From: an uncultured Ignavibacteriaceae bacterium
GTDB taxonomy: Bacteria; Bacteroidota; Ignavibacteria; Ignavibacteriales; Ignavibacteriaceae
Assembly: GCA_964600655.1 (NCBI GenBank)
Contig: CAZRMA010000001.1
Span: forward strand, 1-42,861
DNA length: 42,861 nucleotides
Direction of reading: 5' to 3'
Part shown: one piece after another, positions 12,596 through 26,132 of the stretch
How positions within the stretch are numbered: the stretch's first letter is position 1
Layout: each line of letters opens with the position of its first letter
Made by a program: the position numbers and the translations under genes
Notes under the pieces: model-generated
Told to the model about the DNA's origin: nothing
The model's database searches: none
Seen by the model: the letters and a program-made list of their open reading frames with translations, nothing else

Positions 12596-12637
12596 AAAAA
12601 ATCCTTTCATAAATACTTTATGAAAGGATTTTTTTGA
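12596..12637 (+). terminator. Rho-independent terminator (13 bp stem, 3 nt loop, T-run)
   Basis: atcctttcataaa (12601-12613) pairs perfectly with tttatgaaaggat (12617-12629) around a 'tac' loop. It is followed by a T-run and preceded by an A-run, 25 nt after the stop at 12575. Confidence 0.75.
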
Positions 12638-12762: not shown

Positions 12763-14031
12763 TTAAACTTCCTGCATTGCTTCAACATCTTGTTCCCAAA
12801 TTCCTGTAAACAAAAACATGTAGGCAAGAATAAATAGCCAGCCTACAAGGTGATCCAGCCTAAATAAAACTGATTCCTGCAAATTAATAACTAATGAAGC
12901 GATTAAAATCCAAACCCAGGGATTAGGATAATTCAACCTACGCAAACTTGCAAAATACCTAACTATCATAATTAAGAATATACCCAACCCTACAAACCCA
13001 ATCTCGTTTGTAATATCCAGATAACCATTATGACTTTGATTTGGAATCCAAATAAACAAATCATATATATGCTTTAGATAAGCAGAAGGGGGATTAACGC
13101 TCCAAAATGCAAGATATCCCGTTCCCTGAATTGGATGTTGCATAATGCTAATTAACATTGCTGTCCATAAGTTTGTTCTACCTGATAATGTAGGGTCCTT
13201 TCCAACCGATTCCGTAATTATATCTATTATTTCAGGTGAAACAAATATTACCAGTGCAGCCGCCAATATTATAAATAAAAAAATTGTTACAGATGCAGAA
13301 CGGCCAAGTCCAAGAGGTTTAAATATTTTATCAATCGATAATAAGGTACCAGCAAATGCCAGTAAAAGAAAAGTTGAAATTGAAGTCATACTTCTTGCGC
13401 CAAATAATAGCGCCAAAGAAAAAAGCACCGCAACAGCTGCAATAAATTTAGGACGACCTGTCTCTGTCTTGTATATAAAAAAGCTCAATAATATACATAC
13501 TACCGAGACTTGACCAAGACCATTTTTCTCGATAGAAAATCCACGCCAAGTTTGAAATGCTGGGTCTATCGCGCCAGGCACTACTAAACAAACTACAACT
13601 GAAGAAAATACATATAAATAAAGAATAGGTTTTATAATCTTTAGAATATCATTGGTGGAATTTGTATGCACAATTAACGAAAGTATAACTGCAAAACCTG
13701 TAAAGATCCTAAAAAAACGCTTTGCTGTATCAAGTGGACTATATGACCAAAGCGTACTTATTAAACACCAAAGCAAAAATATAGTTAGTAATTTTTCCTT
13801 TTTTATTATTTCTATGGCATCTGTACGCCTGAAAGAAAGCGAAATCATTGAAAGTAAAAATATCAGTGTATAGATTATTTGATTAATAATGTTGCCTCCC
13901 TCGTTCGGGACTGTATCTTTACTAGGTGGCTGGAACGGAATGCTTGTATGAAAAAACATAACAAACAAAAATATTCCAAACGTAATAATAGCAATCTTGA
14001 AAAAAATATTTTTCTCAACTCTGTTTTCCAT
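12763..14031 (-). CDS. O-antigen ligase/polymerase-family (Wzy-like) integral membrane protein
   Basis: 422 aa and strongly hydrophobic, with many predicted TM segments. It has a periplasmic-loop motif resembling the Wzy_C/O-antigen-ligase signature (...IPNQSHNGYLDITNEIGFVGLGIF...). Confidence 0.7.
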   Translation of the reverse strand: MENRVEKNIFFKIAIITFGIFLFVMFFHTSIPFQPPSKDTVPNEGGNIINQIIYTLIFLLSMISLSFRRTDAIEIIKKEKLLTIFLLWCLISTLWSYSPLDTAKRFFRIFTGFAVILSLIVHTNSTNDILKIIKPILYLYVFSSVVVCLVVPGAIDPAFQTWRGFSIEKNGLGQVSVVCILLSFFIYKTETGRPKFIAAVAVLFSLALLFGARSMTSISTFLLLAFAGTLLSIDKIFKPLGLGRSASVTIFLFIILAAALVIFVSPEIIDIITESVGKDPTLSGRTNLWTAMLISIMQHPIQGTGYLAFWSVNPPSAYLKHIYDLFIWIPNQSHNGYLDITNEIGFVGLGIFLIMIVRYFASLRRLNYPNPWVWILIASLVINLQESVLFRLDHLVGWLFILAYMFLFTGIWEQDVEAMQEV

Positions 14032-14608: not shown

Positions 14609-15571
14609 ATGAAAAATTTCGCCATTACCGGGGTAGCAGGTTACATTGCTCCCAGACATTTAAAAGCTATAAAAGAAACAGGGAACAACCTCGTTTCGGC
14701 TGTAGATCCACACGATTCTGTTGGTATTTTGGATCAATTTTTTCCGAACGCTAGTTTTTTCACGGAGTTTGAGAGATTTGATAGACATTTGGAAAAATTA
14801 CGAAGAAAGGGTGAGGAACAAAGAGTACATTACTTAACAATTTGTTCTCCAAATAATTTACATGACGCCCATATAAGATTAGCTTTAAGAGTCGGTGCAA
14901 ATGCAATTTGTGAAAAGCCATTGGTTTTGAATCCATGGAATTTGGATGCCCTTCAAGAACTAGAAGCTGAAACCGGAAGCAGAGTTTATACAATATTGCA
15001 ACTTAGAGTTCACGATAGCCTTATTGAATTAAAAAAGAAATTAGAATCATTAAAATCGTCAAGTAAGTATAAAGTAAATTTAACATACATTACATCACGA
15101 GGCTTATGGTATGATTTTTCGTGGAAAGGAATAAAAGAAAAATCAGGAGGAATTGGGACTAACATTGGTGTTCACTTTTTCGATTTACTAATCTGGCTGT
15201 TCGGTGATGTTAAAAAAAGTGAATTACAATTATCCGAAGCTAATAAGATGGCAGGATTTATCGAGCTTGAAAATGCAGAAGTATCCTGGTTCCTATCAGC
15301 AGATAGAAATGATCTTCCTGCTGATCTTATTGAAAAAAAAATCCCAACCTTTAGGTCTATAGAATTTAATGGCCAGGAAATTCAATTTAGTTCGGGATTC
15401 ACAGATCTACATACCAAGGTCTACCAGGAAACTTTAGTTGGAAATGGTTTTGGTATTGAAGATGCGCGACCTTCAATAAAATTAGTCTACGATTTAAGAA
15501 ATACAAAAATAATAGAAAATAGTGCTGCACCTATTCATTCTATGGCAAAAAAATACTGTATAAAAAAATAA
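14609..15571 (+). CDS. wbpB: UDP-N-acetyl-2-amino-2-deoxy-D-glucuronate 3-dehydrogenase-like oxidoreductase (Gfo/Idh/MocA; WbpB/WlbA-like)
   Basis: 320 aa. MKNFAITGVAGYIAPRHLKAIKETGNNLVSAVDPHDSVGILD, ICSPNNLH, ICEKPLV, LTYITSRGLWYDFSWKG, TNIGVHFFDLL and GFTDLHTKVYQE closely follow the Pseudomonas aeruginosa WbpB sequence as I recall it. Confidence 0.85.
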   Translation: MKNFAITGVAGYIAPRHLKAIKETGNNLVSAVDPHDSVGILDQFFPNASFFTEFERFDRHLEKLRRKGEEQRVHYLTICSPNNLHDAHIRLALRVGANAICEKPLVLNPWNLDALQELEAETGSRVYTILQLRVHDSLIELKKKLESLKSSSKYKVNLTYITSRGLWYDFSWKGIKEKSGGIGTNIGVHFFDLLIWLFGDVKKSELQLSEANKMAGFIELENAEVSWFLSADRNDLPADLIEKKIPTFRSIEFNGQEIQFSSGFTDLHTKVYQETLVGNGFGIEDARPSIKLVYDLRNTKIIENSAAPIHSMAKKYCIKK

Positions 15572-15578
15572 TAATACT

Positions 15579-16160
15579 ATGAAATATTTTGTTCATGAAT
15601 CAGCAATAGTTGATAGAGATGTTAATATAGGGGAAGGTGCAAAGATCTGGCACTTCAGTCATGTTCAGAGTGGTGCACAAATCGGAAGTAACTGTGTCCT
15701 AGGCCAAAATGTTAACATCGGGAATAATGTAGTTATAGGTAATAATTGTAAAATTCAGAATAACGTATCAGTGTATGAAGGTGTTACTCTTGAAGATTAT
15801 GTGTTCTGTGGCCCTTCAATGGTATTCACAAATATTCTTGATCCAAAATGCAAGTATCCGCAGGTTGGTTCTAAGTTCTATGTTAAAACTTTAGTTCAGG
15901 AAGGTGCTTCTTTTGGTGCAAACTGCACAATAGTATGCGGAAACAAAATCGGAAAAAATTCAATGATCGGTGCAGGGGCTGTAGTTACAAAAGACGTTCC
16001 CGATTTTGCTCTTGTTGTTGGAACCCCGGCTAAAATTATTGGTTGGGTAAGTGAAGCTGGAAAGAGATTGAATTTTGATAAAAACGGATTTGCATTTTGC
16101 GAAAAATCAAATAAGAAATACAAAATTGAAAATCAAATTGTTACAGAAGTTAGTTTATAA
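15579..16160 (+). CDS. wbpD: Left-handed beta-helix N-acetyltransferase (WbpD/WlbB-like, UDP-2-acetamido-3-amino-2,3-dideoxy-glucuronate N-acetyltransferase)
   Basis: 193 aa. VHESAIVD...GAKIWHFSHV...IGNNCKIQNNVSVYEGVTLEDYVFCGPSMVFTN...GANCTIVCG...IGAGAVVTKDVPDFALVVGTPAKIIGW matches WbpD-type hexapeptide transferases. It starts 7 nt after wbpB. Confidence 0.85.
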   Translation: MKYFVHESAIVDRDVNIGEGAKIWHFSHVQSGAQIGSNCVLGQNVNIGNNVVIGNNCKIQNNVSVYEGVTLEDYVFCGPSMVFTNILDPKCKYPQVGSKFYVKTLVQEGASFGANCTIVCGNKIGKNSMIGAGAVVTKDVPDFALVVGTPAKIIGWVSEAGKRLNFDKNGFAFCEKSNKKYKIENQIVTEVSL

Positions 16161-16287: not shown

Positions 16288-17250
16288 ATGGAAAAAATTA
16301 AATTAGTATATATTACAGGATATGGCAAAAGCGGTGGGACACTTATAGGGCGGCTTTTAGGCGATACAAAAAACGCATTTTTTGTAGGTGAAGTAAGATA
16401 CTTTTGGAGATACGGAATTTTAAAAAACTACGATTGCACTTGCGGTCAAAAATTTGATACTTGCGGCTTTTGGAAGAATGTTAAAGATGAATATATAAAT
16501 TCATTTCCATCAATAAAGATAGAAGAAATCAGTGAAGAATTAAGAGAGTTTGAAATGCTAAAAAATTATTTCAATCTAAAACGATTTCTAAAAGATAAAA
16601 ACAACACTGCATTTCGAGAAAAATTGTCTGATTATTTAGCACATAATGAAAAATTATATGAAACAATTGCAAAGTTAAGCGGAAAGAATATACTGGTTGA
16701 TTATTCAAACATCCCTGGTCGGTTGTTAGCTCTTTCCTTTTCAGATAAATTCGAAATCTATCCAATACACCTTGTTAGAGATCCCAGGGGAGTATTGAAC
16801 TCATATATACAAGCGGATTTACGCTATTATGGGAAAAATATACACAATAATTTTTGGCAGGTTTTTGTCTGGAATATTAATACAATTTTCTCCAGAATCA
16901 TCATAAAGAAATTGAATTCGGGGGACATTCCGACTATTTTATATAAAAATTTTGTGAAAGACCCAGTTCCAATCCTAGATAAATTAACGGGATTTTTTAA
17001 TGACAAATTTAACTATGATAAAAAGGACGGAAAGACTACAGTCTATTTAGATCAGGGGCATGTTTTTTCTGGTAACAGAAGCAGGTTCGAATCAAACAAT
17101 GTCACCCTGGTTGAAGATACCAAATGGAAAAAACAGCTGAGCTGGCCGAATAAATTATTAGCAAACATAATGTCACTTCCCCTTTATCGATATATTTTGA
17201 ATTGGTCTAGAAATAAACAATTCACTATTGGATCTTTTAAATCAGAATGA
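16288..17250 (+). CDS. PAPS-dependent sulfotransferase
   Basis: 320 aa. N-terminal 5'-phosphosulfate-binding-loop-like YITGYGKSGGTLIGRLLG and a 3'-phosphate-binding-like HLVRDPRGVLNS. It lies immediately upstream of the PAPS synthesis and PAP recycling genes. Confidence 0.75.
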   Translation: MEKIKLVYITGYGKSGGTLIGRLLGDTKNAFFVGEVRYFWRYGILKNYDCTCGQKFDTCGFWKNVKDEYINSFPSIKIEEISEELREFEMLKNYFNLKRFLKDKNNTAFREKLSDYLAHNEKLYETIAKLSGKNILVDYSNIPGRLLALSFSDKFEIYPIHLVRDPRGVLNSYIQADLRYYGKNIHNNFWQVFVWNINTIFSRIIIKKLNSGDIPTILYKNFVKDPVPILDKLTGFFNDKFNYDKKDGKTTVYLDQGHVFSGNRSRFESNNVTLVEDTKWKKQLSWPNKLLANIMSLPLYRYILNWSRNKQFTIGSFKSE

Positions 17251-17297
17251 TCTAAAAAAACTATTATTAATTTTTAATATGGCTGTTTACTTAAAAT

Positions 17298-18107
17298 ATG
17301 ATTGATATTGAAAAAATTATTAACATAACTCTCGATGCTGGCAAATCAGTACTTGAAATTTACAACTCTGATGATTTTGACATTCAAATCAAAACAGATA
17401 AATCCCCTCTTACTCAAGCAGACATAGCTTCTCATAATTTGATAAAAACAGGGTTAAATAGTTTATATCCGGATATTCCGATTTTGTCTGAAGAAGGGGC
17501 TAATATTCCATATCAAGAAAGAAAGAATTGGAAAAAGTTTTGGTTGGTTGATCCATTAGATGGTACTAAAGAGTTTATTAAAAAGAACGGAGAATTTACA
17601 ATTAACATTGCTCTGATTGAAAATAATAAACCTGTATTTGGAATTATATATGCACCGGCTTATGAAGAAAAATTCGTAAATGGAGAAATTGATATTAAAG
17701 AAGAATTTAACTTTAATAAATTGGATATAACAAGGGGCTCTCTCTATTTTGCGGATGAAACACTTGGATCCTATAAAATTATTAATCGGAATAAGCCTAT
17801 AAAGCTGTCGGTTAATAAAGGCAAAAGTGAAAAAAAAATTGCAGTGAAGAGTCGATCTCATTCATCAGAAGAAGAACAAAAAGTATTAGATGAACTTGGA
17901 GTTAATGAATATATTTCTGTTGGCAGCTCACTGAAATTTTGTATGCTTGCTGAAGGTCAGGCACAAGTTTACTATCGACACGGCCCAACAAATGAATGGG
18001 ATGTCGGGGCGGGTTATGCTATTGCTAAATTTGCTGGGGCCGACATAAAGGGATTAACTTTTAATAAACAAAATTTGCTAAATGACTCATTTATCGTAAA
18101 AAGTTAA
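17298..18107 (+). CDS. cysQ: 3'(2'),5'-bisphosphate nucleotidase (inositol-monophosphatase family)
   Basis: 269 aa. LSEEG, WLVDPLDGTKEF, WDVGAGYAI and a KSDKSPLTQADIASH-type N-terminus are typical of CysQ. Confidence 0.8.
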   Translation: MIDIEKIINITLDAGKSVLEIYNSDDFDIQIKTDKSPLTQADIASHNLIKTGLNSLYPDIPILSEEGANIPYQERKNWKKFWLVDPLDGTKEFIKKNGEFTINIALIENNKPVFGIIYAPAYEEKFVNGEIDIKEEFNFNKLDITRGSLYFADETLGSYKIINRNKPIKLSVNKGKSEKKIAVKSRSHSSEEEQKVLDELGVNEYISVGSSLKFCMLAEGQAQVYYRHGPTNEWDVGAGYAIAKFAGADIKGLTFNKQNLLNDSFIVKS

Positions 18108-18196
18108 TAAAGAGCTAATACTCTGAACTAATAATTTAAAAGAAATTTTTAGCACTTTAAATAAGAATTATTCAATAATATGAAATATGGTGATTA

Positions 18197-19190
18197 ATGA
18201 ACAATAGAATTTTTAAAATTATTGCGACAGTAGGTCCTAGTTCTCTTATAGAAAATATTATAAAGGAAATGGACAGGTGGGGTACAGATATCTTTAGAAT
18301 TAATTTATCACATACTTCAATTGATGATTTAAGAGGTGTTATTGAAAAACTTAGATTATGGACCAAAAAGCCGATTTGTCTGGATACTGAAGGAGCTCAG
18401 GTAAGAACCGGAAAATTTTCAACAGGTCAAATTACTCTTCAAACTAATAGTTTAGTTGAAATAGTAGAATATAGAGACAAAAAACAAGATAACAAGCTTG
18501 CAATTTATCCAATAAAACCTGAAGAAATCTTAAAAGTTGGAGATATTTTAAGAATAGATTTCAATTCTGTGATTGTGCAAATAACTAAAATTGAAGAAAA
18601 ATTAGTTTTGGGTCGTGTAATAGAAGGTGGAGTAGTTGGCAGCAATAAAGGCATAGGTATTGATAGAATGCCATATCTGTCTCCATTTACTGAGAAGGAT
18701 CTTGCTGCTCTAAAAATTGGCAAAGAAATGAATATTGATTTTTATGCTTTATCCTTTGCATATCAAAAAGAAGAAATTATTTGGATAAGGGAACAATTTA
18801 AATATCCACTTTTTGTTATAAGTAAAATCGAGAGTTACAATGCACTTTCAAATCTAAGAGATATAGTAAAGGCTACCGATGCGATTTTAATTGATAGAGG
18901 AGATTTGTCTAAAGAAGTACCGCTTCAAAAAATAGGTGTAACTCAACGATATATTATGAACTTTGCTAATCAATTTGAAAAGCCTGTTTACGTAGCAACA
19001 AATCTTTTAGACAGTATGATTTCCGGACTACAACCAAACAGAGCAGAAATTAATGATATAACAAGTAACCTCTTTAACGGAGCGAAAGGATTAGTATTAG
19101 CAGCCGAGACAGCAATTGGCAATCACCCTGTAGAAGTTGTTCGAATGGCGGCCGGGGTAATTGAGGAAACAACAAACTATATGAGCTATT
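18197..19190 (+). other. Domain: pyruvate kinase barrel (A) plus cap (B) domain; the PK C-terminal regulatory domain is absent
   Basis: See the motifs listed for the CDS. The counterparts of the PK catalytic Lys/Glu (SKIES), Asp (DRGDL), Thr (ETA) and Arg/Asn/Ser (RINLS) are all present. Boundaries are approximate. Confidence 0.7.
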
Positions 19191-20395
19191 ATACTAATAT
19201 GAATATTCATGATTATATAGATAAAGTTTATGAGAATAGCCTGATACCACCCCATGGAGGAGAGCTCATTCAAAATTATGTAGAAGAAGATATAAAAGAA
19301 ATTGAAAGCAAAAATTACCCTAAACATTATGTTAATGAACAGACAGCCTTAGATATTGAACAATTGGCTACCGGTACTTATTCACCAATCAGGGGATTTA
19401 TGAATTTGAAAGAAATGTATTCGGTATTGGAATCAAATAAATTACTTGACGGAAATATCTGGACTCTACCTATTTTATTACAAATGAATAAGGATGATAT
19501 AGATTTTAAATTAGGCGATAAAGTTTTATTATACTCGAAAATAGATAAGCAATTGCTGGGAGTATTAACTGTAAATAATATAGAAAAGATCCAAGATTTG
19601 AATGTTTGCGCGGAAAAATGGTTTGATACGAAAGATGACAGTCACCCGGGTGTTAGCTACTTTAAAAGCAGAGGAAATTACATAGTCAGCGGTGATGTAT
19701 TTAAACTTAGACGTGGCAGCACGGAAATTCCATATGTATTGACTCCAAAACAAATAAGATCGATTTTAAGAGATCTTAACCTTGCTACTGTAGTAGGATT
19801 CCATACCAGAAATATAATACATAGAGGTCATGAATTCATTCAAAAAGAAGCATTAAAAAGGATTAATGCTGATGCATTATTTATAAGCCCTGTAATTGGA
19901 CCAAAGAAAAAGGGCGATTTTGTTTCTGACGTAATTCTCAGAAGTTATGAAAGAATGATATCTAAAGGTTTTTATGATCCATTTAAAGTCCTGCTGGGGG
20001 CTTTTAGCACATATTCCAGATACAGTGGACCTAGGGAAGCAGTTTTTACAGCATTGTGTAGAAAAAATTTCGGATGCAGCCATTTTATTGTTGGAAGGGA
20101 CCATACGGGTGTTGGCAACTTCTACAATGCAAATGCATCACAGGAAATATTTGATAAATTAGGCGATTTAGGAATTAAACCTGTATTCTTTGACACAGCA
20201 TATTATTGTAGTGTCTGCGGATCAGTTACAGATAACTGTGATCATCCTGAAGATAAAAGGACTAAAATCAGCGCTACTGAAATCAGGAATTACCTCATAA
20301 GTAATAAACGACCTCCGGAATACTTGTTAAGAACTGAAATTTCAGATGTTCTGGAGAATATGATTAATGCAAAAGAACAATTATTCATAAGTTAA
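18197..20395 (+). CDS. Fusion protein: pyruvate-kinase-like A/B domains (N-terminal) + ATP sulfurylase (sulfate adenylyltransferase, C-terminal)
   Basis: Single 732 aa ORF. PK-like motifs: IIATVGPSS, FRINLSHTS, CLDTEGAQVRTG, FVISKIESY, ILIDRGDLSKEVP, VYVATNLLDSM, PNRAEINDITSNLFNGAKGLVLAAETAIGNHPVEVV. ATP sulfurylase motifs: LIPPHGGELIQNYV, GFHTRNIIHRGHEFI, HFIVGRDHTGVG. Confidence 0.85.
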   Translation: MNNRIFKIIATVGPSSLIENIIKEMDRWGTDIFRINLSHTSIDDLRGVIEKLRLWTKKPICLDTEGAQVRTGKFSTGQITLQTNSLVEIVEYRDKKQDNKLAIYPIKPEEILKVGDILRIDFNSVIVQITKIEEKLVLGRVIEGGVVGSNKGIGIDRMPYLSPFTEKDLAALKIGKEMNIDFYALSFAYQKEEIIWIREQFKYPLFVISKIESYNALSNLRDIVKATDAILIDRGDLSKEVPLQKIGVTQRYIMNFANQFEKPVYVATNLLDSMISGLQPNRAEINDITSNLFNGAKGLVLAAETAIGNHPVEVVRMAAGVIEETTNYMSYYTNMNIHDYIDKVYENSLIPPHGGELIQNYVEEDIKEIESKNYPKHYVNEQTALDIEQLATGTYSPIRGFMNLKEMYSVLESNKLLDGNIWTLPILLQMNKDDIDFKLGDKVLLYSKIDKQLLGVLTVNNIEKIQDLNVCAEKWFDTKDDSHPGVSYFKSRGNYIVSGDVFKLRRGSTEIPYVLTPKQIRSILRDLNLATVVGFHTRNIIHRGHEFIQKEALKRINADALFISPVIGPKKKGDFVSDVILRSYERMISKGFYDPFKVLLGAFSTYSRYSGPREAVFTALCRKNFGCSHFIVGRDHTGVGNFYNANASQEIFDKLGDLGIKPVFFDTAYYCSVCGSVTDNCDHPEDKRTKISATEIRNYLISNKRPPEYLLRTEISDVLENMINAKEQLFIS
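19220..20395 (+). other. sat: Domain: ATP sulfurylase (PUA-like plus catalytic domain)
   Basis: Starts near LIPPHGGEL. Contains the HxxH-type motif TRNIIHRGH and GRDHTG. Boundaries are approximate. Confidence 0.8.
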
Positions 20396-20413
20396 AAAGA
20401 AGGAATACTTCAA

Positions 20414-20923
20414 GTGATAATTTGGCTAACAGGACTTTCCGGATCCGGTAAAACAACGCTCAGCAATTTATTAAAAGAAAAGCTAACTAAAGATGGTTAT
20501 ACTGTTGAGTGGTATGATGGAGACAGAGTTAGGGAAGAATTGAATATTGTATCAGATTTTTCAAAAGAAGGTATTCTAAAAAATAATCGTGAAATTATAA
20601 ATAGAATAAATAAAGTTAAAGAAGAAACTGATTTCATTTTAATTTCCTTAATAACTCCATATCAGGAAGTCAGGAACTATGCGAGAAAAATTTTCGGCAA
20701 GGATTATTTTGAAGTTTATATTAAATGTGATAAAAATACTTTAATAGAAAGAGATACTAAAGGATTGTATAAAAAAGCGTTAAACGGCGAGATAGATAAT
20801 CTTATAGGATTTAGCCAAAAGATCCCCTATGAAGAGCCTGCTAATCCAGATCTCATATTGGAAACAAATTTGATTGCTCCTGAAGAAGCAATAAGAAAAA
20901 TATATGAAAAGTTAACTAAATAA
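20414..20923 (+). CDS. cysC: Adenylylsulfate (APS) kinase
   Basis: 169 aa. P-loop IIWLTGLSGSGKTTLSNLL, YDGDRVRE and ISLITPY are the classic CysC pattern. GTG start 18 nt after the fusion gene, with aaagaagg upstream. Confidence 0.9.
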   Translation: MIIWLTGLSGSGKTTLSNLLKEKLTKDGYTVEWYDGDRVREELNIVSDFSKEGILKNNREIINRINKVKEETDFILISLITPYQEVRNYARKIFGKDYFEVYIKCDKNTLIERDTKGLYKKALNGEIDNLIGFSQKIPYEEPANPDLILETNLIAPEEAIRKIYEKLTK

Positions 20924-21014: not shown

Positions 21015-21050
21015 AAAATAAAACCTTTCATAAGAATATATTATGAAAGG
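21015..21050 (-). terminator. Rho-independent terminator (10 bp stem) for the first phosphatase paralog; may also stop the convergent cysC operon
   Basis: cctttcataa (21024-21033) pairs with ttatgaaagg (21041-21050) around a 7 nt loop. On the minus strand it is followed by ttttattttatat. It lies 30 nt after the stop at 21081 and sits between convergent genes. Confidence 0.6.
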
Positions 21051-21080: not shown

Positions 21081-22550
21081 CTATTTCAATAAACTCATCT
21101 TCTTTGTTTCAAAAAAACTACCTGCAGTTAAACGATATAGATAAATTCCACTTACAACTGTTTCTCCTTCACTATCTCTTCCATTCCAATATATTATATG
21201 ATAGCCTGCTGTTGTTTGTTTGTTCACTAATGTTCTTACTTCCCTTCCCAAGATATCATAGATTTTTATTGTTACATCCGTTGCCAACGGTATGTAAAAC
21301 TTGATTGCTGTTGATGGATTAAATGGATTTGGACTATTCTGCATCAGTTCTGGCTCAGTGTTAGTAGTTAAATTCACGATTAAAATATTATAATATTTAA
21401 ATTTCCCATCAATATCTATTTGCTTAAGCCTGTAACTGAAAGAATTGCCCCCTGAGGGATTATCAGTATAAGAATATACTTTTGGTGAATTGCTATTGCC
21501 TGAACCAACAACAAAACCAATTTTTTGCCAGCCTGAATTTGATGACGATCTTTCAACATCAAATCCATAGTTATTTACCTCGGTTGCTGTCGACCATTTT
21601 AATTGAACAGCGGATGATTGGACAACAGTTGCTGTAAATGTAATTAGTTCTACCGGCAAAACCGACTTATTTATTGTATAACTGTCGATTAATGGATAAC
21701 CAGATGACACTGAATGAAATTCAAATCTTAGCGAATCACTTTTTTCGATAACTTTCAAGGCTCCATAATTACCAGCATATCGAACCATACTTCCGGTCAC
21801 ATATGGCTTTGAAAATCCATCATGTGAATCTCCACCCAATCCATCTATAAAATATACCAAAGTATCGCCGTCTGAATTATCATCTCTTAGGATACGTTCG
21901 TAATCATGGGCATGTCCATTTAATACCACATCAACTCCCCAATTTTCAAACGGCCACTGCATATATGAATTACTATCGTCATAACCTGAACTATAAGCAG
22001 GATGGTGAAAAAGTATAATCTTCCATTTTGCTGTCGAATTTGTTATCTGTTGATGTATCCATACAGCCTGATTAGAAGTAGAGGAAGTTCCGTCTGGCTC
22101 GCGTGTATCAGAATCTACAATAAAAAATTCAATGTCGCCTATTTGCTTAGTATAGTAATTTGGCAAATTAAAATAATTATGATAAGAATTTATGCTGTAG
22201 TCCCAATCGTGATTGCCTACAATCGGCCAGAAGTGATTGAATGTTGTTGTATCCGAGCCACCGTATGTGGACTCATGTGGATACATATACTGGTGATAAT
22301 ATAGGCCTACATCATCAGGATAGGAGTCCGTATATACATTGTCGCCTACCGTAAAAACAAAGCTGGGATACCAGGAATTTATCATTGTTGCCACGTCTCC
22401 TTCGTGAGTATCATTAGAACCCATATCCCCTACTACTGCAAAAACTGTTTGTGTTTGAGCATAGCAAATATGAGAAATCAAAAACAGGAACACAATAAAG
22501 ACTAATTGATTGAGATTTAAATAAAAAAATATATCCCTACATTTTTTCAT
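21081..22550 (-). CDS. Secreted purple-acid-phosphatase-like metallophosphoesterase with Fn3-like plus T9SS C-terminal module (paralog 1)
   Basis: 489 aa with a signal peptide. Metallophosphatase motif series of the PAP type: VVGDMGS, TVGDNVY, VGNHDW, LFHHPAYSS, NGHAHDYER. C-terminal LPVELITFTA...NNYGFDVER...MQNSPNPFNPSTAIKFY...YLYRLTAGSFFETKKMSLLK. Confidence 0.8.
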   Translation of the reverse strand: MKKCRDIFFYLNLNQLVFIVFLFLISHICYAQTQTVFAVVGDMGSNDTHEGDVATMINSWYPSFVFTVGDNVYTDSYPDDVGLYYHQYMYPHESTYGGSDTTTFNHFWPIVGNHDWDYSINSYHNYFNLPNYYTKQIGDIEFFIVDSDTREPDGTSSTSNQAVWIHQQITNSTAKWKIILFHHPAYSSGYDDSNSYMQWPFENWGVDVVLNGHAHDYERILRDDNSDGDTLVYFIDGLGGDSHDGFSKPYVTGSMVRYAGNYGALKVIEKSDSLRFEFHSVSSGYPLIDSYTINKSVLPVELITFTATVVQSSAVQLKWSTATEVNNYGFDVERSSSNSGWQKIGFVVGSGNSNSPKVYSYTDNPSGGNSFSYRLKQIDIDGKFKYYNILIVNLTTNTEPELMQNSPNPFNPSTAIKFYIPLATDVTIKIYDILGREVRTLVNKQTTAGYHIIYWNGRDSEGETVVSGIYLYRLTAGSFFETKKMSLLK

Positions 22551-22755
22551 ATAGTTAATTCCTCAATAAAATTATTTGAATACATTCAATAGAATTTATT
22601 AGATTAGATGTGATATAACAATAATGACTACTTGTTAAGATAATCAGTAAACCTAGATCCTTTAATTACACACTCCATAATTTAACGGTTAAATAATTAC
22701 TTGAATAATTCCTATTAGATTTTAGTTCTTATTTATAGATTTTGCTAAATAAAAC

Positions 22756-22769
22756 GATAGCTTTCTATC
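22756..22769 (-). terminator. Weak hairpin downstream of phosphatase paralog 2
   Basis: Minus strand gatag-aaag-ctatc followed by gttttattt, about 35 nt after the stop at 22805. The stem is short. Confidence 0.3.
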
Positions 22770-22804
22770 CTATAAATTATAAATAATTACATATCACTTC
22801 TATT

Positions 22805-24274
22805 CTACTTTAGGAAACTCATTTTTTTCGTTTCAGAAAAACTCCCTGCAGTTAAACGGTATAGATAGATACCACTTGCAACTGTTTCTCCTCCGCTATC
22901 TCTCCCATTCCAGTAAACTATATGATATCCTGGTGTTGCTTGTTTGTTGATTAATGTTTTCACTTCCCTTCCTAACATATCATAGATTTTTATTGTTACA
23001 TCTGTTGCCGCGGGTGTGTAAAATTTGATTGTAGTCGATGGGTTAAATGGATTTGGACTATTTTGCAACAATTGGGGCTTAGTTGTAGCTGTTAAATTCA
23101 CAGTTATCGTATTATAATATTTGAATTTTCCATCGAAATCTATTTGTTTGAGCCTGTAACTAAATGATGTTCCTCCGGTAGGGTTATCTGTAAATGAATA
23201 ATTTTTTGGTGAATTACTGTTTCCTGAGCCCGATACAAATCCTATTTTCTGCCAGTCTGAATTTGATGACAATCTTTCAACATTATATCCATAATTATTT
23301 ACTTCTGTAGAAGTGGACCAATTTAATAATACTGATGATGGAGGAACGAATCTTGCAGTGAAAGCGGTTAATTCTACAGGCAAAACGGCTTTATTTATGG
23401 TATAACTGTCCAGTAATTTGTAACTGGAAGTAACTTCATGAAATTCAAACCTAAGAGAATCATCCTTTTCAATCACTTTTAATGCGCCGAAATCATCAGC
23501 ATCTTGATATTGGCTTCCAGAAACATGGGGTGTGTTAATTACACCTAAATCGTCTCCTCCTGTTCCGTCCACAAAATAGACCAGTTTTTGACCGTCTGTA
23601 TTATCATCTCTCAGTATTCGCTCATAATCGTGGGAATGTCCGCTTAATACAGCATCAACTCCCCAATCTTCAAATGGCCACTGCATACGTGGATTACTAG
23701 GATTATCCCCGGAACTATAAGCCGGGTGGTGGAAAAGCACAATCTTCCACTTTGCGATTGAATTTGAAATTTGTGTATGTATCCAATTAGCCTGTGTTGA
23801 AGTTGAAGAAGTGCCATCTGGCTCGCGCGTGTCAGAATCTATAACAAAAAACTCAATGTCGCCTATTTGCTTGGTATAGTAATTTGGCAAATTAAAATAA
23901 TTTTGATATGCGCTTATGCTGTAGTCCCAATCGTGATTACCTAATATCGGCCAAAAATGATTGAATGTAGTTGTATCTCCACTTCCATATGTGGACTCGT
24001 GGGGATACATATACTTGTGATAATATTGCCCATCATCATCAGGATAAGAATCTGTATAAACATTATCGCCGACCGTTAACACATAACTTGGATTCCATGT
24101 GTTGACCATCGTAGCCACATCTGCTTCATCTGAGTTATCCGATCCCATGTCTCCAATAACTGCAAAAACTGTTTGAGTTTGTGCATAAGAAATATGCATA
24201 GCCGCTGATACAAAAATTACAAAAACCAGAAGACCAAATTTTTTATAAAACACAATCCTTCTTTTCATATACAT
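22805..24274 (-). CDS. Secreted purple-acid-phosphatase-like metallophosphoesterase with Fn3-like plus T9SS C-terminal module (paralog 2)
   Basis: 489 aa. VIGDMGS, TVGDNVY, LGNHDW, LFHHPAYSS, SGHSHDYER and the same C-terminal module. By eye it is roughly three-quarters identical to paralog 1. The true start may be the second Met (MKRR...). Confidence 0.8.
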   Translation of the reverse strand: MYMKRRIVFYKKFGLLVFVIFVSAAMHISYAQTQTVFAVIGDMGSDNSDEADVATMVNTWNPSYVLTVGDNVYTDSYPDDDGQYYHKYMYPHESTYGSGDTTTFNHFWPILGNHDWDYSISAYQNYFNLPNYYTKQIGDIEFFVIDSDTREPDGTSSTSTQANWIHTQISNSIAKWKIVLFHHPAYSSGDNPSNPRMQWPFEDWGVDAVLSGHSHDYERILRDDNTDGQKLVYFVDGTGGDDLGVINTPHVSGSQYQDADDFGALKVIEKDDSLRFEFHEVTSSYKLLDSYTINKAVLPVELTAFTARFVPPSSVLLNWSTSTEVNNYGYNVERLSSNSDWQKIGFVSGSGNSNSPKNYSFTDNPTGGTSFSYRLKQIDFDGKFKYYNTITVNLTATTKPQLLQNSPNPFNPSTTIKFYTPAATDVTIKIYDMLGREVKTLINKQATPGYHIVYWNGRDSGGETVASGIYLYRLTAGSFSETKKMSFLK

Positions 24275-24540
24275 AATCCTCCAATTTAATTAAATAGAGA
24301 ACACATAACAATTTTTAACTTTCTTTTATATACACAAAGGTGGTAAGGGCTACAATATTTGCTAACTATTAATTACAAAATACTTAATCCCATTCAAACT
24401 AATGTCATCCAACAACATTTTAAGAGATACCTTTTCTGCAATTAATTTCAACTCCAGGATTAGGTTTATTTCTTTCCTAAATAAAACAATGTTATATAAA
24501 TAATATTTTAACATTGTACAATAAATTTTCGACAAAAGGC

Positions 24541-24586
24541 AAAAAAAACCCCATCCCGTAATCCTATGTTATGAAAGAGATTGCGG
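24541..24586 (-). terminator. Possible terminator downstream of phosphatase paralog 3
   Basis: Minus strand ccgcaatc - 15 nt loop - gattacgg (7 of 8 pairs), then gatgggg and T8 (the A8 run at 24541-24548 on plus). The left arm ...aatctctttcataa resembles the left arms of the terminators at 12601 and 21024. Confidence 0.4.
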
Positions 24587-24608
24587 CATACAAAGTATTC
24601 CAAAGTTA

Positions 24609-26132
24609 CTATTTAAGTAGGTTCATTTTCCTGGTTTCGGAATAACTACCCGCAGTTAAGCGGCAAAGATAGATACCGCTTGCCATCTCTTCTCCTCTGC
24701 TATCTTGTCCGTTCCAGTAAACTATATGATAGCCTGCGGTTGTCTGCTGGTTAATTAACGTTCTTACCTCTCTTCCCAAAATATCATAAATTTTAATTAC
24801 AACATCAGACGTACTAGGAATATAATACTTAATAGTTGTTGAAGGATTAAACGGATTTGGCTTATTCTGAAATAATTGTGCCTTATTGGACTCTTCAAGG
24901 TTTATTGTTATTGCATCATAATATTTAAATTTTCCATCAACATCTATCTGTTTGAGTCTGTAACTGAATGAACTTCCGCCCGAAAGGTTATCAGTATAAG
25001 AATAATTTTTAGGTGAATTACTGTTGCCCGAGCCCGGAACGAATCCAATTTTCAGCCAGTACGAATTTGCTGATAATCGTTCAACAACAAAACCATAATT
25101 ATTTACTTCTGTAGAAGTAGACCAGTTTAATTGCACAGACGATGGTTGAATCAGTCTTGCTGTAAATGTTGTTAATTCCACTGGCAATACGGGTTTATTT
25201 ATTGTATAACTATCTATCAAAGGATAACCGGTTCCTAAAGAATGAAATTCAATCCTTAGTGAATCGTCCTTTTCAATTACTTTCATTGCACCCCAATTAG
25301 CATTGTATCGAACTACGCTACCCGGATCATATGGCGTAGCGAAACCATGCTTGCTTCTGCCGCCAAGCCCATTTGTAAAATACGGCAAATAAGTACCATC
25401 ATTGTTTTCATCTTTCAATATTCTTTCATAAACGTGAGCATGACCATACATTACTACATCTACACCGTAGTCTTCGAAAGGCCAGGTAATATAAGTTGTA
25501 TAACTCCCAGTCAAGTCGCTTGATGTATAAGTTGGGTGGTGATAAATAACTATTTTCCATTTTGCAGTTGAATTTTGAATTTTGGGTATCATCCAATTTG
25601 CCTGGGTAGAATTTATAATTGTACCATCAGGTTCATAATTTTTGTCAGAATCAATAAGAAAAAATTCTATATCACCGATTTTAATAGTATAATAGCGTTT
25701 ATTATTAGGTAGATACCAGAAATAATTGTAATAAAGATTAATATTATATTCCCATTCATGATTACCTAAAGCTGGCCAAAAATGATTTTCTGTAGTTGTG
25801 TCACCATTACCATATTCTGTATCATGAGGATACATGTATTGATGAAAATATTTCCCAACTGCGTCATTGTAACTGGTTACAGCATCATCGTATATATTAT
25901 CCCCAACAGTCATTACAAAAGCAGGAGCCCATGAATCTACCATCGCAGCTACAGCTGCTTCGTGTGAATCATTGGTGCCCTCGTCTCCTATCACTGCAAA
26001 TGTAACATTTTGACCAAATGTAAAATGTGAAGAAACAAGAATTTGAATAAAGATTATATAATAAAAGGCTTTGTACTTAAATTTTGTATTAACGCTTCGT
26101 TTGATAAGCAAATAAATATTATTCAAATACAT
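24609..26132 (-). CDS. Secreted purple-acid-phosphatase-like metallophosphoesterase with Fn3-like plus T9SS C-terminal module (paralog 3)
   Basis: 507 aa. VIGDEGT, TVGDNIY, LGNHEW, IYHHPTYTS, YGHAHVYER and the same C-terminal module. It is more diverged than paralogs 1 and 2. Confidence 0.8.
   Translation of the reverse strand: MYLNNIYLLIKRSVNTKFKYKAFYYIIFIQILVSSHFTFGQNVTFAVIGDEGTNDSHEAAVAAMVDSWAPAFVMTVGDNIYDDAVTSYNDAVGKYFHQYMYPHDTEYGNGDTTTENHFWPALGNHEWEYNINLYYNYFWYLPNNKRYYTIKIGDIEFFLIDSDKNYEPDGTIINSTQANWMIPKIQNSTAKWKIVIYHHPTYTSSDLTGSYTTYITWPFEDYGVDVVMYGHAHVYERILKDENNDGTYLPYFTNGLGGRSKHGFATPYDPGSVVRYNANWGAMKVIEKDDSLRIEFHSLGTGYPLIDSYTINKPVLPVELTTFTARLIQPSSVQLNWSTSTEVNNYGFVVERLSANSYWLKIGFVPGSGNSNSPKNYSYTDNLSGGSSFSYRLKQIDVDGKFKYYDAITINLEESNKAQLFQNKPNPFNPSTTIKYYIPSTSDVVIKIYDILGREVRTLINQQTTAGYHIVYWNGQDSRGEEMASGIYLCRLTAGSYSETRKMNLLK

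What the first reader, a model, noticed from the sequence alone, without database searches (positions are those of the whole stretch)
18197..20395. Pyruvate-kinase-like domain fused in-frame to ATP sulfurylase
Seen in sequence: one uninterrupted 732-codon ORF. Residues 1 to about 330 carry the pyruvate kinase A/B-domain motif series: IIATVGPSS, FRINLSHTS, CLDTEGAQVRTG, FVISKIESY, IDRGDLSKEVP, VATNLLDSM, PNRAEINDI..., LAAETAIGNHP. The usual PK C-terminal regulatory domain is missing. It is replaced, from LIPPHGGEL onward, by a complete ATP sulfurylase (TRNIIHRGH, GRDHTGVG).

Established knowledge: in pyruvate kinase, the Lys and Glu of S-K-I-E, the Asp of R-G-D-L, the Thr of E-T-A and the Arg/Asn/Ser of R-x-N-x-S are catalytic or metal ligands. 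All have counterparts here, so the domain looks active rather than decayed. The ATP sulfurylase reaction is strongly unfavourable and is normally pulled by APS kinase and pyrophosphatase.

Inference: the fusion may couple phosphoenolpyruvate to sulfate activation, for example by locally regenerating ATP from the ADP released by the adjacent CysC. Alternatively, the PK-like domain may have a new phosphotransfer substrate. I do not recognise this architecture as a characterised enzyme.
Basis: partly seen in the sequence, partly recalled or inferred. Interest (0 to 1): 0.75.

Follow-up and report, generated by a model that had tools for sequence, protein, structure and literature searches.

The report
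Pyruvate kinase fused to ATP sulfurylase
One gene in a glycan-sulfation operon joins a trimmed pyruvate kinase to the enzyme that activates sulfate; the same uncharacterised fusion occurs in hundreds of bacterial species, so cells probably use phosphoenolpyruvate to keep ATP high and ADP low while making the sulfate donor PAPS.

Summary
Window 18197-20395 (+) is one 732-codon ORF with a pyruvate kinase (PK) A/B barrel (residues 6-315, no C-domain), a PUA-like domain (350-503) and an ATP sulfurylase (ATPS) catalytic domain (513-720). It is not an assembly artefact. More than 120 protein clusters share the architecture. At least 516 species genomes carry this PK family, and about 70 of the 80 best loci are fusions, spread over 15 or more phyla including cultured rhizobia. 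dN/dS for the PK half is 0.035.

The gene lies in the order putative sulfotransferase, CysQ, fusion, CysC, inside a polysaccharide locus. Relatives occur as PK-ATPS-APS kinase, PK-APS kinase, sulfotransferase-PK-ATPS and full-length PK-ATPS. Unfused members sit beside APS-kinase-family genes.

All PK phosphoryl-transfer and nucleotide-contacting residues are invariant. Both halves nevertheless belong to distinct subclades. The PK half has E117Q, S361A/G362A and Q328N (rabbit numbering). The ATPS half has its two sulfate-clamping residues changed, Gln to His and Ala to Thr.

Best explanation, inferred and not assayed: a PEP-driven ATP-regenerating and ADP-scavenging module built into PAPS synthesis. 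I found no paper describing it. Verdict: real and uncharacterised, a new variant of the multi-domain sulfate-activating enzymes.

The parts
18197..20395 (+). Single ORF of 732 aa: the PK(A/B)-PUA_2-ATP sulfurylase fusion.
   Evidence: The AlphaFold2 model has mean pLDDT 88.3 and pTM 0.73.
18212..19141 (+). Pyruvate kinase A (TIM barrel) and B (lid) domains, residues 6-315. The catalytic set is R34, N36, S38, H39, D63, R70, N150, K151, K210, E212, R234, G235, D236, T268 and E304. There is no C-domain.
   Evidence: Pfam PF00224, 191 bits. Alignment to E. coli PykF and M. tuberculosis PK. dN/dS 0.035.
19142..19243 (+). Linker, residues 316-349: the end of the last PK helix plus a short helix. It contains conserved aromatic positions (Y328, Y340, Y345) and has lower model confidence.
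19244..19705 (+). PUA-like domain I of ATP sulfurylase, residues 350-503.
   Evidence: Pfam PF14306, 119 bits.
19733..20356 (+). ATP sulfurylase catalytic domain plus Zn-ribbon region, residues 513-720. The RNP loop reads H536-T-R-N instead of Q-T-R-N. The HxxH motif is H542-R-G-H545. The GRD loop reads G-R-D-H-T637-G instead of GRDHAG. The Zn-type ligands are C671, C674, C681 and H683.
   Evidence: Residue roles are taken from PMC3779200.
20414..20923 (+). APS kinase CysC, 169 aa, GTG start, 18 nt after the fusion's stop codon.
   Evidence: PF01583, 139 bits; TIGR00455, 155 bits, above its cutoff.
17298..18107 (+). CysQ, 3'(2'),5'-bisphosphate nucleotidase (PAP phosphatase).
   Evidence: TIGR01331, 267 bits, above its cutoff.
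16288..17250 (+). Putative sulfotransferase, 320 aa. Matches are weak and below threshold. An N-terminal GxGKSGGT loop is present.
   Evidence: Sulfotransfer_3 E 9.5e-5 and Sulfotransfer_1 E 1.3e-3. The best PDB match is CurM sulfotransferase, E 0.29. Homologues occupy the same position in L015, L018 and L020.
14609..16160 (+). Upstream genes of the same co-directional block: a GFO/IDH/MocA sugar oxidoreductase (14609-15571) and a hexapeptide acyltransferase (15579-16160). These are context, indicating amino-sugar modification.
12763..14031 (-). Wzy_C (O-antigen ligase/polymerase-like) membrane protein, divergent from the block. Context.
21024..21050 (.). Hairpin with T-runs between the convergent genes cysC and the downstream minus-strand gene. 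It is the likely end of the block.
   Evidence: This is a consensus pattern match only.

Best explanation
The protein is a bifunctional enzyme of a self-contained PAPS-supply cassette for glycan sulfation.

Proposed cycle:
- The C-terminal half makes APS and PPi from ATP and sulfate.
- The adjacent CysC converts APS and ATP to PAPS and ADP.
- The N-terminal half is an unregulated pyruvate kinase without a C-domain. It uses PEP to turn that ADP back into ATP.
- The net reaction is ATP + PEP + sulfate -> PAPS + PPi + pyruvate.
- The sulfotransferase uses PAPS, and CysQ destroys the inhibitory PAP.

The proposed benefit is kinetic. Keeping ADP low prevents the dead-end APS kinase-ADP-APS complex and limits ADP competition at the sulfurylase site. 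Keeping ATP high pushes the very unfavourable sulfurylase equilibrium.

Shown here: the domain architecture, the intact catalytic residues, purifying selection, and the recurrent fusion and adjacency with APS kinase, ATPS and sulfotransferases. Inferred: PK activity itself, use of PEP and ADP, and any kinetic benefit.
For: 1. The PK phosphoryl-transfer, metal and nucleotide-contacting residues are invariant in 116 fused and 94 stand-alone family members. In PykF numbering these are R32, N34, S36, H37, D66, R73, N155, K156, K220, E222, R244, G245, D246, T278 and E314.
2. The PK half is under selection as strong as the ATPS half: dN/dS 0.035 against 0.047.
3. Rosetta-stone fusions link PK to each PAPS-pathway enzyme. 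These are PK-APSK (P0366), PK-ATPS-APSK (P0051, P0070, P0255), sulfotransferase-PK-ATPS (L089), and a full-length near-canonical PK with its C-domain fused to the same ATPS clade (P0292).
4. Of 110 immediate same-strand neighbours of fusion genes, 24 are APS kinases, about 15 are sulfotransferases and 6 are CysQ-type. An APS kinase lies within 3 genes in 28 of 70 fusion loci.
5. Stand-alone short PKs were beside APS-kinase-family genes in 6 of 6 loci. 'Stand-alone' ATPS of this clade were beside a PK in 3 of 3 loci.
6. There is an in-vitro precedent. PAPS synthesis by PAPSS1 practically fails without a PK/PEP ATP-regeneration system, which the authors attribute to the APS kinase-ADP-APS dead-end complex (PMC9885120). 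That dead-end complex, and ADP binding to ATPS in the same way as APS, are documented in PMC3734648.
7. A residue other than Glu or Lys at PK position 117 is compatible with activity (PMC4374775).
Against: No enzymology exists for any member.

The PK subfamily carries invariant substitutions at otherwise near-universal active-site positions. In rabbit numbering these are K114E, P116A, E117Q, A292D, G297S, Q328N, S361A/G362A and K366I. They could signal a changed substrate or changed chemistry. From my own recollection of the PK mechanism literature, which I did not check here, Ser361 lies on the face where enolpyruvate is protonated.

Free ATP and ADP diffuse quickly, so a purely 'local' regeneration benefit is hard to justify without channelling or complex formation. 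From general knowledge, which I did not check here, cultured hosts such as the rhizobia probably also encode a canonical PK. That leaves open why a dedicated PK is needed.

The ATPS sulfate pocket is also altered (Gln to His, Ala to Thr), so even the anion is not proven to be sulfate.

About 40% of fusion loci showed no APS kinase within 10 kb in my screen.
Confidence: 0.6

Rival explanations
1. The PK-like domain has acquired a new function. It keeps PK-type phosphoryl-transfer chemistry but acts on a different donor or acceptor tied to sulfonucleotide metabolism. Examples would be a different nucleotide, or an ATP-dependent kinase reaction that needs no enolate protonation. On this view it is not a pyruvate kinase in the EC 2.7.1.40 sense.
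For: Family-wide invariant replacements occur at positions that are near-universal in PKs: E117Q, K114E, Q328N, S361A/G362A, A292D, G297S and K366I (rabbit numbering). The allosteric C-domain is lost. The score falls below the TIGR01064 equivalog cutoff, 252 against 306. The family also accompanies APS-kinase homologues in MeOPN-like phosphoramidate clusters that have no ATPS.
Against: Every residue known to bind the PEP phosphate and carboxylate, Mg2+, the monovalent-cation site and the ADP phosphates is invariant. P0292 keeps the canonical S-G-E motif, Lys117 and the C-domain, and is still fused to the same ATPS clade. That points to ordinary PK chemistry as the coupled activity. The only metabolites shared with all fusion partners are ATP and ADP.
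Confidence: 0.2
2. The PK-like domain is mainly a scaffold or sensor. It would drive oligomerisation or bind PEP, ADP or APS as an allosteric signal for the sulfurylase. This would parallel the catalytically inactive APS-kinase-like regulatory domain of fungal ATP sulfurylase (recalled from my own knowledge, not checked here).
For: Helper domains on ATPS can be regulatory. The stand-alone homologue most similar to the ATPS half is a homodimer (PMC10322725), and PK A-domains also self-associate. The PK C-domain, which normally builds the tetramer, has been lost.
Against: A non-catalytic domain would not keep K210, E212, D236, T268, R34, R70 and K151 invariant across about 210 sequences at about 45% identity, nor show dN/dS of 0.035. 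The family also exists as free-standing proteins of about 335 aa and as PK-APSK fusions without any ATPS.
Confidence: 0.07
3. The cassette activates an anion other than sulfate, or makes a product other than PAPS, because the sulfate-clamping residues of the sulfurylase are replaced. The PK would then serve that different chemistry.
For: Gln to His (H536) and Ala to Thr (T637) co-vary and are essentially fixed in this clade. Searches found 136 and 76 H/T sequences. No canonical Q/A sequence occurred among the 110 nearest relatives. PMC3779200 states that sulfate is sandwiched between exactly these two residues, and that these loops are strictly conserved in known ATPS.
Against: The context is consistently APS kinase, sulfotransferases and CysQ. 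The remaining APS- and PPi-binding motifs (T-R-N, HxxH, G-R-D-H) are intact. His and Thr can both still donate hydrogen bonds to sulfate.
Confidence: 0.06
4. The finding is an artefact: two adjacent genes (pyk and sat) merged by a sequencing error or a chimeric assembly. A related version is that a housekeeping PK became fused by accident, with no functional link.
For: None was found. A few database entries show the two halves as separate or overlapping genes (L097, L101).
Against: The same in-frame fusion appears in more than 120 clusters at 90% identity and more than 60 clusters at 50% identity, from independent samples and assemblers. These include complete replicons of cultured Ensifer and Sinorhizobium. 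Composition is uniform across the junction. The PK clade is specific to sulfation loci.
Confidence: 0.01

Closest known systems
Canonical pyruvate kinase (EC 2.7.1.40; e.g. E. coli PykF, M. tuberculosis PykA, rabbit muscle PK)
   Same: It has the A-domain TIM barrel with the inserted B-domain lid. It shares about 35% identity over 320 residues. All residues for the PEP phosphate and carboxylate, Mg2+ (E212, D236), the catalytic Lys (K210), the Thr proton donor (T268), the monovalent-cation site (N36, S38, D63, T64) and the ADP phosphates (R70, K151) are conserved.
   Different: It has no C-terminal alpha/beta domain, so no known allosteric site and no C-C tetramer interface. Position 117 is Gln, neither Glu (K+-dependent) nor Lys (K+-independent). 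The 'MLSGETA' motif reads 'LAAETA', 'ATQM' reads 'ATNL', and 'ARGDLG' reads 'DRGDLS'. The domain is covalently attached to ATPS. It scores below the TIGR01064 cutoff.
Homo-oligomeric Sat-type ATP sulfurylase with a Zn site (Methanothermococcus thermolithotrophicus 8a8d; Thermus thermophilus 1v47)
   Same: It has the PUA-like domain I, the catalytic domain II with T-R-N, HxxH and G-R-D-H, and the Cys3His Zn-type motif. It shares 37% identity, TM 0.92.
   Different: The sulfate-clamping Gln of the QxRN loop is His, and the Ala of GRDHAG is Thr. The Pro of 'RNP' is not conserved. It carries an N-terminal PK. It scores below the NF003166 and TIGR00339 cutoffs.
Multi-domain sulfate-activating enzymes: ATPS-APS kinase (animal PAPS synthase, Aquifex 2gks) and ATPS-inorganic pyrophosphatase fusions of stramenopiles and haptophytes (PMC2275785)
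   Same: The design logic is the same. ATPS is fused to an enzyme that shifts its unfavourable equilibrium or consumes its product. Relatives of this protein also add APS kinase at the C-terminus.
   Different: The helper here acts on the substrate side, raising ATP and removing ADP by spending PEP. It does not remove PPi or APS. I found no description of a PK helper.
CysDN sulfate adenylyltransferase (GTP-coupled)
   Same: It is a functional analogy only: an extra high-energy phosphate compound is spent to drive APS formation. This rests on my knowledge of the CysDN family and was not tested here.
   Different: CysD and CysN are unrelated folds, and GTP hydrolysis is mechanically coupled to APS synthesis within the complex. 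No such coupling is shown here, and the link may be by mass action only.
Laboratory PK/PEP ATP-regeneration systems used for enzymatic PAPS synthesis (PMC9885120)
   Same: The set of reactions is identical: ATPS + APS kinase + PK/PEP. Removing ADP is reported as necessary for PAPS accumulation in vitro.
   Different: That is an artificial mixture of separate enzymes. Here the combination is encoded naturally, fused and conserved.

Membership tests
Pyruvate kinase (PF00224 / TIGR01064, EC 2.7.1.40) | A-domain (beta/alpha)8 barrel with an inserted B-domain. | tested here: met
   PF00224 covers residues 6-315 and profile positions 4-328 of 328, at 191 bits. Foldseek matches PK structures. The DSSP pattern of the model fits.
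Pyruvate kinase (PF00224 / TIGR01064, EC 2.7.1.40) | Catalytic and ligand residues (rabbit numbering): R72, N74, S76, D112, T113, R119, K206, K269, E271, D295, T327, E363. | tested here: met
   All are present in the window protein (R34, N36, S38, D63, T64, R70, K151, K210, E212, D236, T268, E304). All are invariant or nearly so in 210 family members.
Pyruvate kinase (PF00224 / TIGR01064, EC 2.7.1.40) | C-terminal alpha/beta domain (PF02887) carrying the allosteric site and the tetramer interface. | tested here: not met
   There is no PF02887 hit. TIGR01064 aligns only to positions 4-346 of 476 and scores 252, below its cutoff of 306.
Pyruvate kinase (PF00224 / TIGR01064, EC 2.7.1.40) | Glu or Lys at position 117 with its co-varying 113/114/120 signature, plus the canonical MLSGETA and ATQM motifs. 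| tested here: not met
   The window protein has Q68 at position 117 and E65 at 114. The motifs read LAAETA and ATNL. These changes are invariant in the subfamily. Active PKs with other residues at 117 are known (PMC4374775).
Pyruvate kinase (PF00224 / TIGR01064, EC 2.7.1.40) | PEP + ADP -> pyruvate + ATP activity. | not testable with these tools
   This requires an enzyme assay.
Sat-type ATP sulfurylase (PF14306 + PF01747, EC 2.7.7.4) | PUA-like domain I plus a catalytic nucleotidyl-transferase domain with the HxxH motif. | tested here: met
   PF14306 covers residues 350-503 and PF01747 covers 513-720. H542-R-G-H545 is present. TM is 0.92 to 8a8d and 1v47.
Sat-type ATP sulfurylase (PF14306 + PF01747, EC 2.7.7.4) | RNP loop QxRN and GRD loop GRDHAG, whose Gln and Ala-NH clamp the sulfate (PMC3779200). 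| tested here: not met
   The window protein has H536-T-R-N and G-R-D-H-T637-G. The H/T pair is fixed in the PK-associated clade. T, R, N, G, R, D and H are retained. The scores of 365.8 and 294.6 lie below the NF003166 (387) and TIGR00339 (323) cutoffs.
Sat-type ATP sulfurylase (PF14306 + PF01747, EC 2.7.7.4) | Cys3His zinc site in domain III (Thermus and archaeal type). | tested here: met
   C671, C674, C681 and H683 align with the Zn-motif region of 1v47 and 8a8d. Metal binding itself was not tested.
Bifunctional PAPS synthase (ATPS + APS kinase on one chain) | An APS kinase domain (PF01583) on the same polypeptide. | tested here: not met
   The window protein has no PF01583 domain. CysC is a separate gene 18 nt downstream. 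Relatives P0051, P0070 and P0255 do carry it.
PAPS-dependent glycan sulfation cassette | Co-directional ATPS, APS kinase, PAP phosphatase and sulfotransferase genes inside a polysaccharide locus. | tested here: met
   The window genes at 16288-20923 meet this, flanked by Wzy_C, a glycosyltransferase and sugar-modifying genes. The sulfotransferase call is weak. The same pattern appears in L009, L012, L014 and L015-L094.

The most novel reading that the evidence does not exclude
PK, the His/Thr-type ATP sulfurylase and APS kinase form an obligate PEP-driven sulfate-activating machine. In this reading the fused PK does more than shift bulk ATP/ADP. It hands ATP to, and takes ADP from, its partners within a complex. 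PEP hydrolysis energy is then effectively coupled to PAPS formation, as a substrate-level analogue of GTP-coupled CysDN. The remodelled sulfate pocket (Gln to His, Ala to Thr) would be a co-adaptation that changes the sulfurylase's affinity or product inhibition. This would define a third, previously unrecognised class of sulfate-activating system, widespread in uncultured phyla including CPR bacteria.
Probability: 0.2. Interest if true: 0.85.

Novelty: new variant of a known kind. Interest (0 to 1): 0.66.

Why it matters
Sulfate activation is one of the most thermodynamically unfavourable steps in core metabolism. The known solutions are removal of PPi, removal of APS and coupling to GTP hydrolysis. 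A conserved natural fusion that adds pyruvate kinase suggests a fourth strategy: spending PEP to hold ATP high and ADP low at the point of use.

The fusion is found across at least 15 bacterial phyla, with one Asgard-archaeal record, and always in cassettes that feed sulfotransferases rather than cysteine synthesis. It therefore marks loci that make sulfated glycans in organisms that are mostly uncultured, including CPR bacteria.

It also offers a ready-made, self-regenerating PAPS synthase for biocatalysis, where PK/PEP is at present added as a separate component. Because the fusion is present in cultured Ensifer and Mesorhizobium, the idea can be tested directly.

The co-varying change of the two sulfate-clamping residues contradicts the published view that the ATPS substrate site is invariant.

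Tried and rejected
- **Artefact or chimera.** Rejected on homologue recurrence, uniform GC and purifying selection.
- **Already described.** Six full-text searches pairing pyruvate kinase with sulfurylase, adenylyltransferase or sulfotransferase terms found no paper on the fusion. The library omits many subscription journals, so this is absence of evidence only.
- **Annotated records.** tblastn against the plasmid collection found full-length copies in Ensifer adhaerens and Sinorhizobium chiapasense megaplasmids. The PLSDB feature table was empty there, so no curated name was obtained.
- **Promoter and terminator scan.** It was uninformative in this AT-rich DNA: 66 promoter-like sites against 52 expected.
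- **Model geometry.** The AlphaFold model could not be used to measure distances between active sites because the tool does not return coordinates. Foldseek only re-identified the two halves.
- **Local neighbour screen.** My phmmer and iterative screen under-detected sulfotransferases. Pfam later found Sulfotransfer_3 in loci it had scored as 'none', so the counts are lower bounds.
- **Apparent stand-alone ATPS of this clade.** One, P0384, was a gene-calling fragment of a fusion (L100 equals L031). Another pair (P0136/L097) looks like a frameshifted fusion in a noisy assembly.
- **Second PK in the host.** Whether host genomes also encode a canonical PK could not be checked, because only loci and not whole genomes are available.
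- **One bad dN/dS comparison.** The comparison with L018 was out of register because of an indel and was discarded.


Full report
**1. The observation**

Window 18197-20395 (+) is one uninterrupted ORF of 732 codons. Pfam finds three domains:
- a pyruvate-kinase barrel, PF00224, at residues 6-315 (191 bits, covering profile positions 4-328 of 328);
- a PUA-like domain, PF14306, at residues 350-503;
- an ATP-sulfurylase domain, PF01747, at residues 513-720.

The PK C-terminal domain PF02887 is not found. NCBIfam agrees. The pyruvate kinase model TIGR01064 aligns only to its positions 4-346 of 476. The sulfate adenylyltransferase model NF003166 aligns over 3-386 of 393. Both score below their curated cutoffs, as expected for divergent subfamilies.

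Sequence search of the PDB gives pyruvate kinases for the N-half and ATP sulfurylases for the C-half. The best ATPS matches are Methanothermococcus thermolithotrophicus 8a8d (E 1e-83) and Thermus 1v47. An AlphaFold2 model built on 38 homologues has mean pLDDT 88.3 and pTM 0.73. Foldseek matches its C-half to 8a8d and 1v47 at TM 0.92 and its N-half to PKs. No solved chain covers both halves.

**2. It is not an artefact**

The same three-domain architecture was returned for all 120 best clusters in the 5.8-billion-protein collection, at 45-93% identity. In the 50%-identity representative library, more than 60 full-length clusters share it, down to 36% identity.

GC content is uniform across the junction. 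Against a 93%-identical relative (L015), dN/dS is 0.035 for the PK half, 0.080 for linker plus PUA and 0.047 for the ATPS domain. The PK half is therefore at least as constrained as the sulfurylase half.

**3. Genomic context in the window**

The gene lies in a co-directional block with short gaps:

| Coordinates | Product | Support |
|---|---|---|
| 14609-15571 | sugar oxidoreductase | Pfam |
| 15579-16160 | hexapeptide acyltransferase | Pfam |
| 16288-17250 | weakly scoring sulfotransferase-like protein | below Pfam thresholds |
| 17298-18107 | CysQ PAP phosphatase | TIGR01331, 267 bits |
| 18197-20395 | the fusion | see section 1 |
| 20414-20923 | APS kinase CysC | TIGR00455, 155 bits |

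Around this block are a Wzy_C membrane protein, a family-2 glycosyltransferase, a YdjC-like protein and several type-IX-secretion cargo proteins. This is a surface-glycan locus that carries its own PAPS supply and PAP disposal. It is not a cysteine-biosynthesis operon. The closest relatives come from Ignavibacteria and Bacteroidota metagenome bins.

**4. Distribution and related architectures**

Of the 80 best loci, 74 yielded a detectable PK ORF in my local gene call, and 70 of those were PK-ATPS fusions. The taxa include:
- Ignavibacteriota and Bacteroidota;
- CPR groups (Colwell-, Nealson- and Staskawiczbacteria, and Saccharibacteria);
- Bdellovibrionota, Marinimicrobia, Omnitrophota, Planctomycetota, Chloroflexota and Acidimicrobiia;
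- Acidobacteriota, Elusimicrobia, KSB1 and Calditrichota;
- Arcobacter, Thauera, Nisaea and cultured Mesorhizobium.

One record is labelled Promethearchaeota. Full-length copies also lie on megaplasmids of cultured Ensifer adhaerens and Sinorhizobium chiapasense.

Other architectures occur in the family:
- PK-ATPS-APS kinase (P0051, P0070, P0255);
- PK-APS kinase without ATPS (P0366);
- nucleotide pyrophosphatase/phosphodiesterase-PK-ATPS (P0291);
- sulfotransferase-PK-ATPS in a single 1069-aa ORF (L089);
- PK-CBS (P0238);
- a full-length PK that keeps its C-domain, fused to the same ATPS clade (P0292).

**5. Neighbours elsewhere**

Among 110 immediate same-strand neighbours of fusion genes, 24 are APS kinases. 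Sulfotransfer_3 matched 15 neighbours and Sulfotransfer_1 matched 14, with overlap between the two sets. Six neighbours are CysQ-type phosphatases, and several are polysaccharide flippases. An APS kinase lies within three genes in 28 of 70 fusion loci. Loci that my local screen scored as empty turned out, by Pfam, to have Sulfotransfer_3 genes directly adjacent.

The PK domain alone retrieves a large family of free-standing 'short PKs' of 320-345 aa, with PF00224 only, at 43-53% identity. In all six loci I examined, these sit beside an APS-kinase-family gene, often with stop and start codons overlapping a sulfotransferase gene. Two of those loci contain no ATPS. Instead they carry homologues of the Campylobacter O-methyl-phosphoramidate pathway, whose 3'-kinase is an APS-kinase homologue; that assignment rests on my own knowledge. 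The constant partner of this PK family is therefore an ADP-producing CysC-type kinase.

A neighbour-joining tree places the fused PK domains in essentially one clade and the free-standing ones in a sister block. Only four changes of state are needed.

**6. The PK active site**

I aligned 116 fused and 94 free-standing members to E. coli PykF and M. tuberculosis PK. The following are invariant or nearly so:
- the residues that bind the PEP phosphate and carboxylate and Mg2+ (window R34, K210, E212, G235, D236, T268);
- the monovalent-cation ligands (N36, S38, D63, T/S64);
- the ADP-phosphate contacts (H39, R70, N150, K151);
- E304.

The family also carries fixed differences from canonical PKs (rabbit numbering): K114E, P116A, E117Q, A292D, G297S, I298R/K, Q328N, M329L, S361A, G362A and K366I. 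Position 117 is the known K+ switch. Glu gives K+-dependence and Lys gives independence, but crenarchaeal PKs with Ser or Val at this position are active and K+-independent, and Gln also occurs there (PMC4374775). Gln68 therefore does not argue against activity.

From my recollection of the PK mechanism literature, not checked here, the Ser361/Gly362 pair lies on the face where enolpyruvate is protonated. Its replacement is the main reason to keep a 'changed chemistry' rival open. P0292 keeps S-G-E, Lys117 and the C-domain, and is still fused to this ATPS clade. That favours ordinary PK chemistry as the activity being coupled.

**7. The sulfurylase half is also a distinct clade**

The canonical RNP loop QxRN reads H536-T-R-N, and the GRD loop GRDHAG reads G-R-D-H-T637-G. 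In known structures the sulfate group of APS hydrogen-bonds to exactly this Gln, the following Arg and the NH of this Ala. The sulfate is described as 'sandwiched' between Gln and Ala, and these loops are described as strictly conserved whatever the metabolic role (PMC3779200).

The His/Thr pair co-varies and is essentially fixed among PK-bearing sequences: 136 His/Thr, with a few mixed. It is also fixed among the 110 nearest relatives of the ATPS half, with 76 His/Thr and no Gln/Ala. The canonical Gln/Ala pair reappears only in more distant stand-alone ATPS.

All three apparent 'stand-alone' His/Thr ATPS genes that I could place were next to a PK gene or were fragments of a fusion. PK and this ATPS subtype are therefore a co-evolving pair. 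The other catalytic motifs (T-R-N, HxxH, G-R-D-H) and the Cys3His Zn-type motif (C671, C674, C681, H683) are intact.

**8. Mechanism**

ATP and ADP are the only metabolites that PK shares with ATPS and with APS kinase. The fusion pattern (PK with ATPS, PK with APS kinase, all three together, and with a sulfotransferase) is what one expects if PK closes the loop ADP -> ATP inside the PAPS pathway. The net reaction would be ATP + PEP + sulfate -> PAPS + PPi + pyruvate.

The biochemical rationale is documented:
- In an in-vitro cascade, PAPS was 'practically missing' without a PK/PEP ATP-regeneration module and accumulated with it (PMC9885120).
- Fusions of ATPS to a helper that shifts its equilibrium are known for inorganic pyrophosphatase in stramenopiles and haptophytes (PMC2275785).

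Loss of the allosteric C-domain fits a constitutive, pathway-dedicated PK. I put this explanation at about 0.6.

The steps that are shown are the architecture, the conservation, the selection and the association. The steps that are inferred are PK activity, the substrates, and any kinetic advantage or channelling. The weak points are the fixed active-site substitutions, the fast diffusion of free ATP and ADP, and the altered sulfate pocket.

**9. Comparison with known systems, and novelty**

Each half resembles a known family but fails a curated membership criterion. The PK half lacks the C-domain, the canonical 117 signature and the MLSGETA motif. The ATPS half lacks the QxRN Gln and the GRDHAG Ala. 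The whole works most like the multi-domain sulfate-activating enzymes (PAPS synthase, ATPS-pyrophosphatase). Functionally it resembles GTP-coupled CysDN and the PK/PEP regeneration systems that chemists add to PAPS syntheses.

I found no publication describing a PK-ATPS protein. Databases label members generically as 'pyruvate kinase' or 'sulfate adenylyltransferase'. I therefore rate it as a new variant of a known kind. It is real, widespread and uncharacterised, and it can be tested directly in cultured rhizobia.

Noticed in passing
window 19802-19813 (H536-T-R-N) and 20093-20110 (G-R-D-H-T637-G); also P0292, P0326 and P0473: In this clade the two residues that clamp sulfate in all characterised ATP sulfurylases are replaced together: the Gln of QxRN by His, and the Ala of GRDHAG by Thr. 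The clade is always physically associated with a PK gene or domain. The published view (PMC3779200) is that these loops are strictly conserved.
   Followed up: partly
L001 2-9514 (also L002-L005 and L065); locus of P0230: Free-standing short PKs of the same family sit next to APS-kinase homologues in clusters that lack ATPS. These clusters carry a PPDK_N/PEP-utilizers protein, a GATase and a nucleotidyltransferase. The set resembles the Campylobacter O-methyl-phosphoramidate (Cj1415-Cj1418) pathway, with a sulfotransferase-like gene overlapping the PK start. This suggests that the PK partners CysC-type 3'-kinases in general, and not only in PAPS synthesis.
   Followed up: partly
P0291 (1151 aa), P0366 (505 aa), P0238 (478 aa), L089 4106-7312: Further architectures of the same PK clade were found: type-I phosphodiesterase/nucleotide pyrophosphatase-PK-ATPS, PK-APS kinase, PK-CBS, and sulfotransferase-PK-ATPS. 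The phosphodiesterase domain might remove PPi or PAP.
   Followed up: partly
L095 (Ensifer adhaerens plasmid pCTYH.Ch1_1) 5729-15268; similar in Mesorhizobium L077, L088 and L090: In cultured rhizobia the fusion and APS kinase are followed by a Na+/H+-exchanger-family membrane protein, a PqqD-plus-P-loop protein and an NTP_transf_5 nucleotidyltransferase. They are preceded by Wzy_C and two unassigned proteins. The exchanger-family gene recurs next to fusions in Chloroflexota (L051). It may be the anion importer.
   Followed up: no
window 21081-26132 (-): Three tandem paralogous genes (489, 489 and 507 aa) encode a calcineurin-like metallophosphoesterase domain with a FlgD-Ig/T9SS-type C-terminal sorting region. 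They lie convergent to the sulfation block. A Metallophos gene also follows the short PK in the Nitrospirae locus L006.
   Followed up: no
window 20414-20923 (+): CysC starts at GTG with the P-loop at residues 8-15. It therefore lacks the N-terminal extension of about 20-30 residues found in E. coli-type APS kinases; TIGR00455 aligns from its position 19.
   Followed up: no
window 12596-12634: A perfect 18-bp-stem hairpin flanked by A and T runs lies between the convergent genes 11025-12575 (+) and 12763-14031 (-). It is a likely bidirectional terminator.
   Followed up: no
L097 7001-9171; L101 6067-8221: In some assemblies the PK and ATPS halves appear as separate or overlapping genes. L097 looks like a frameshifted fusion in a noisy long-read assembly. 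L101 has a 29-nt overlap, which could be a real split or a sequencing error.
   Followed up: partly
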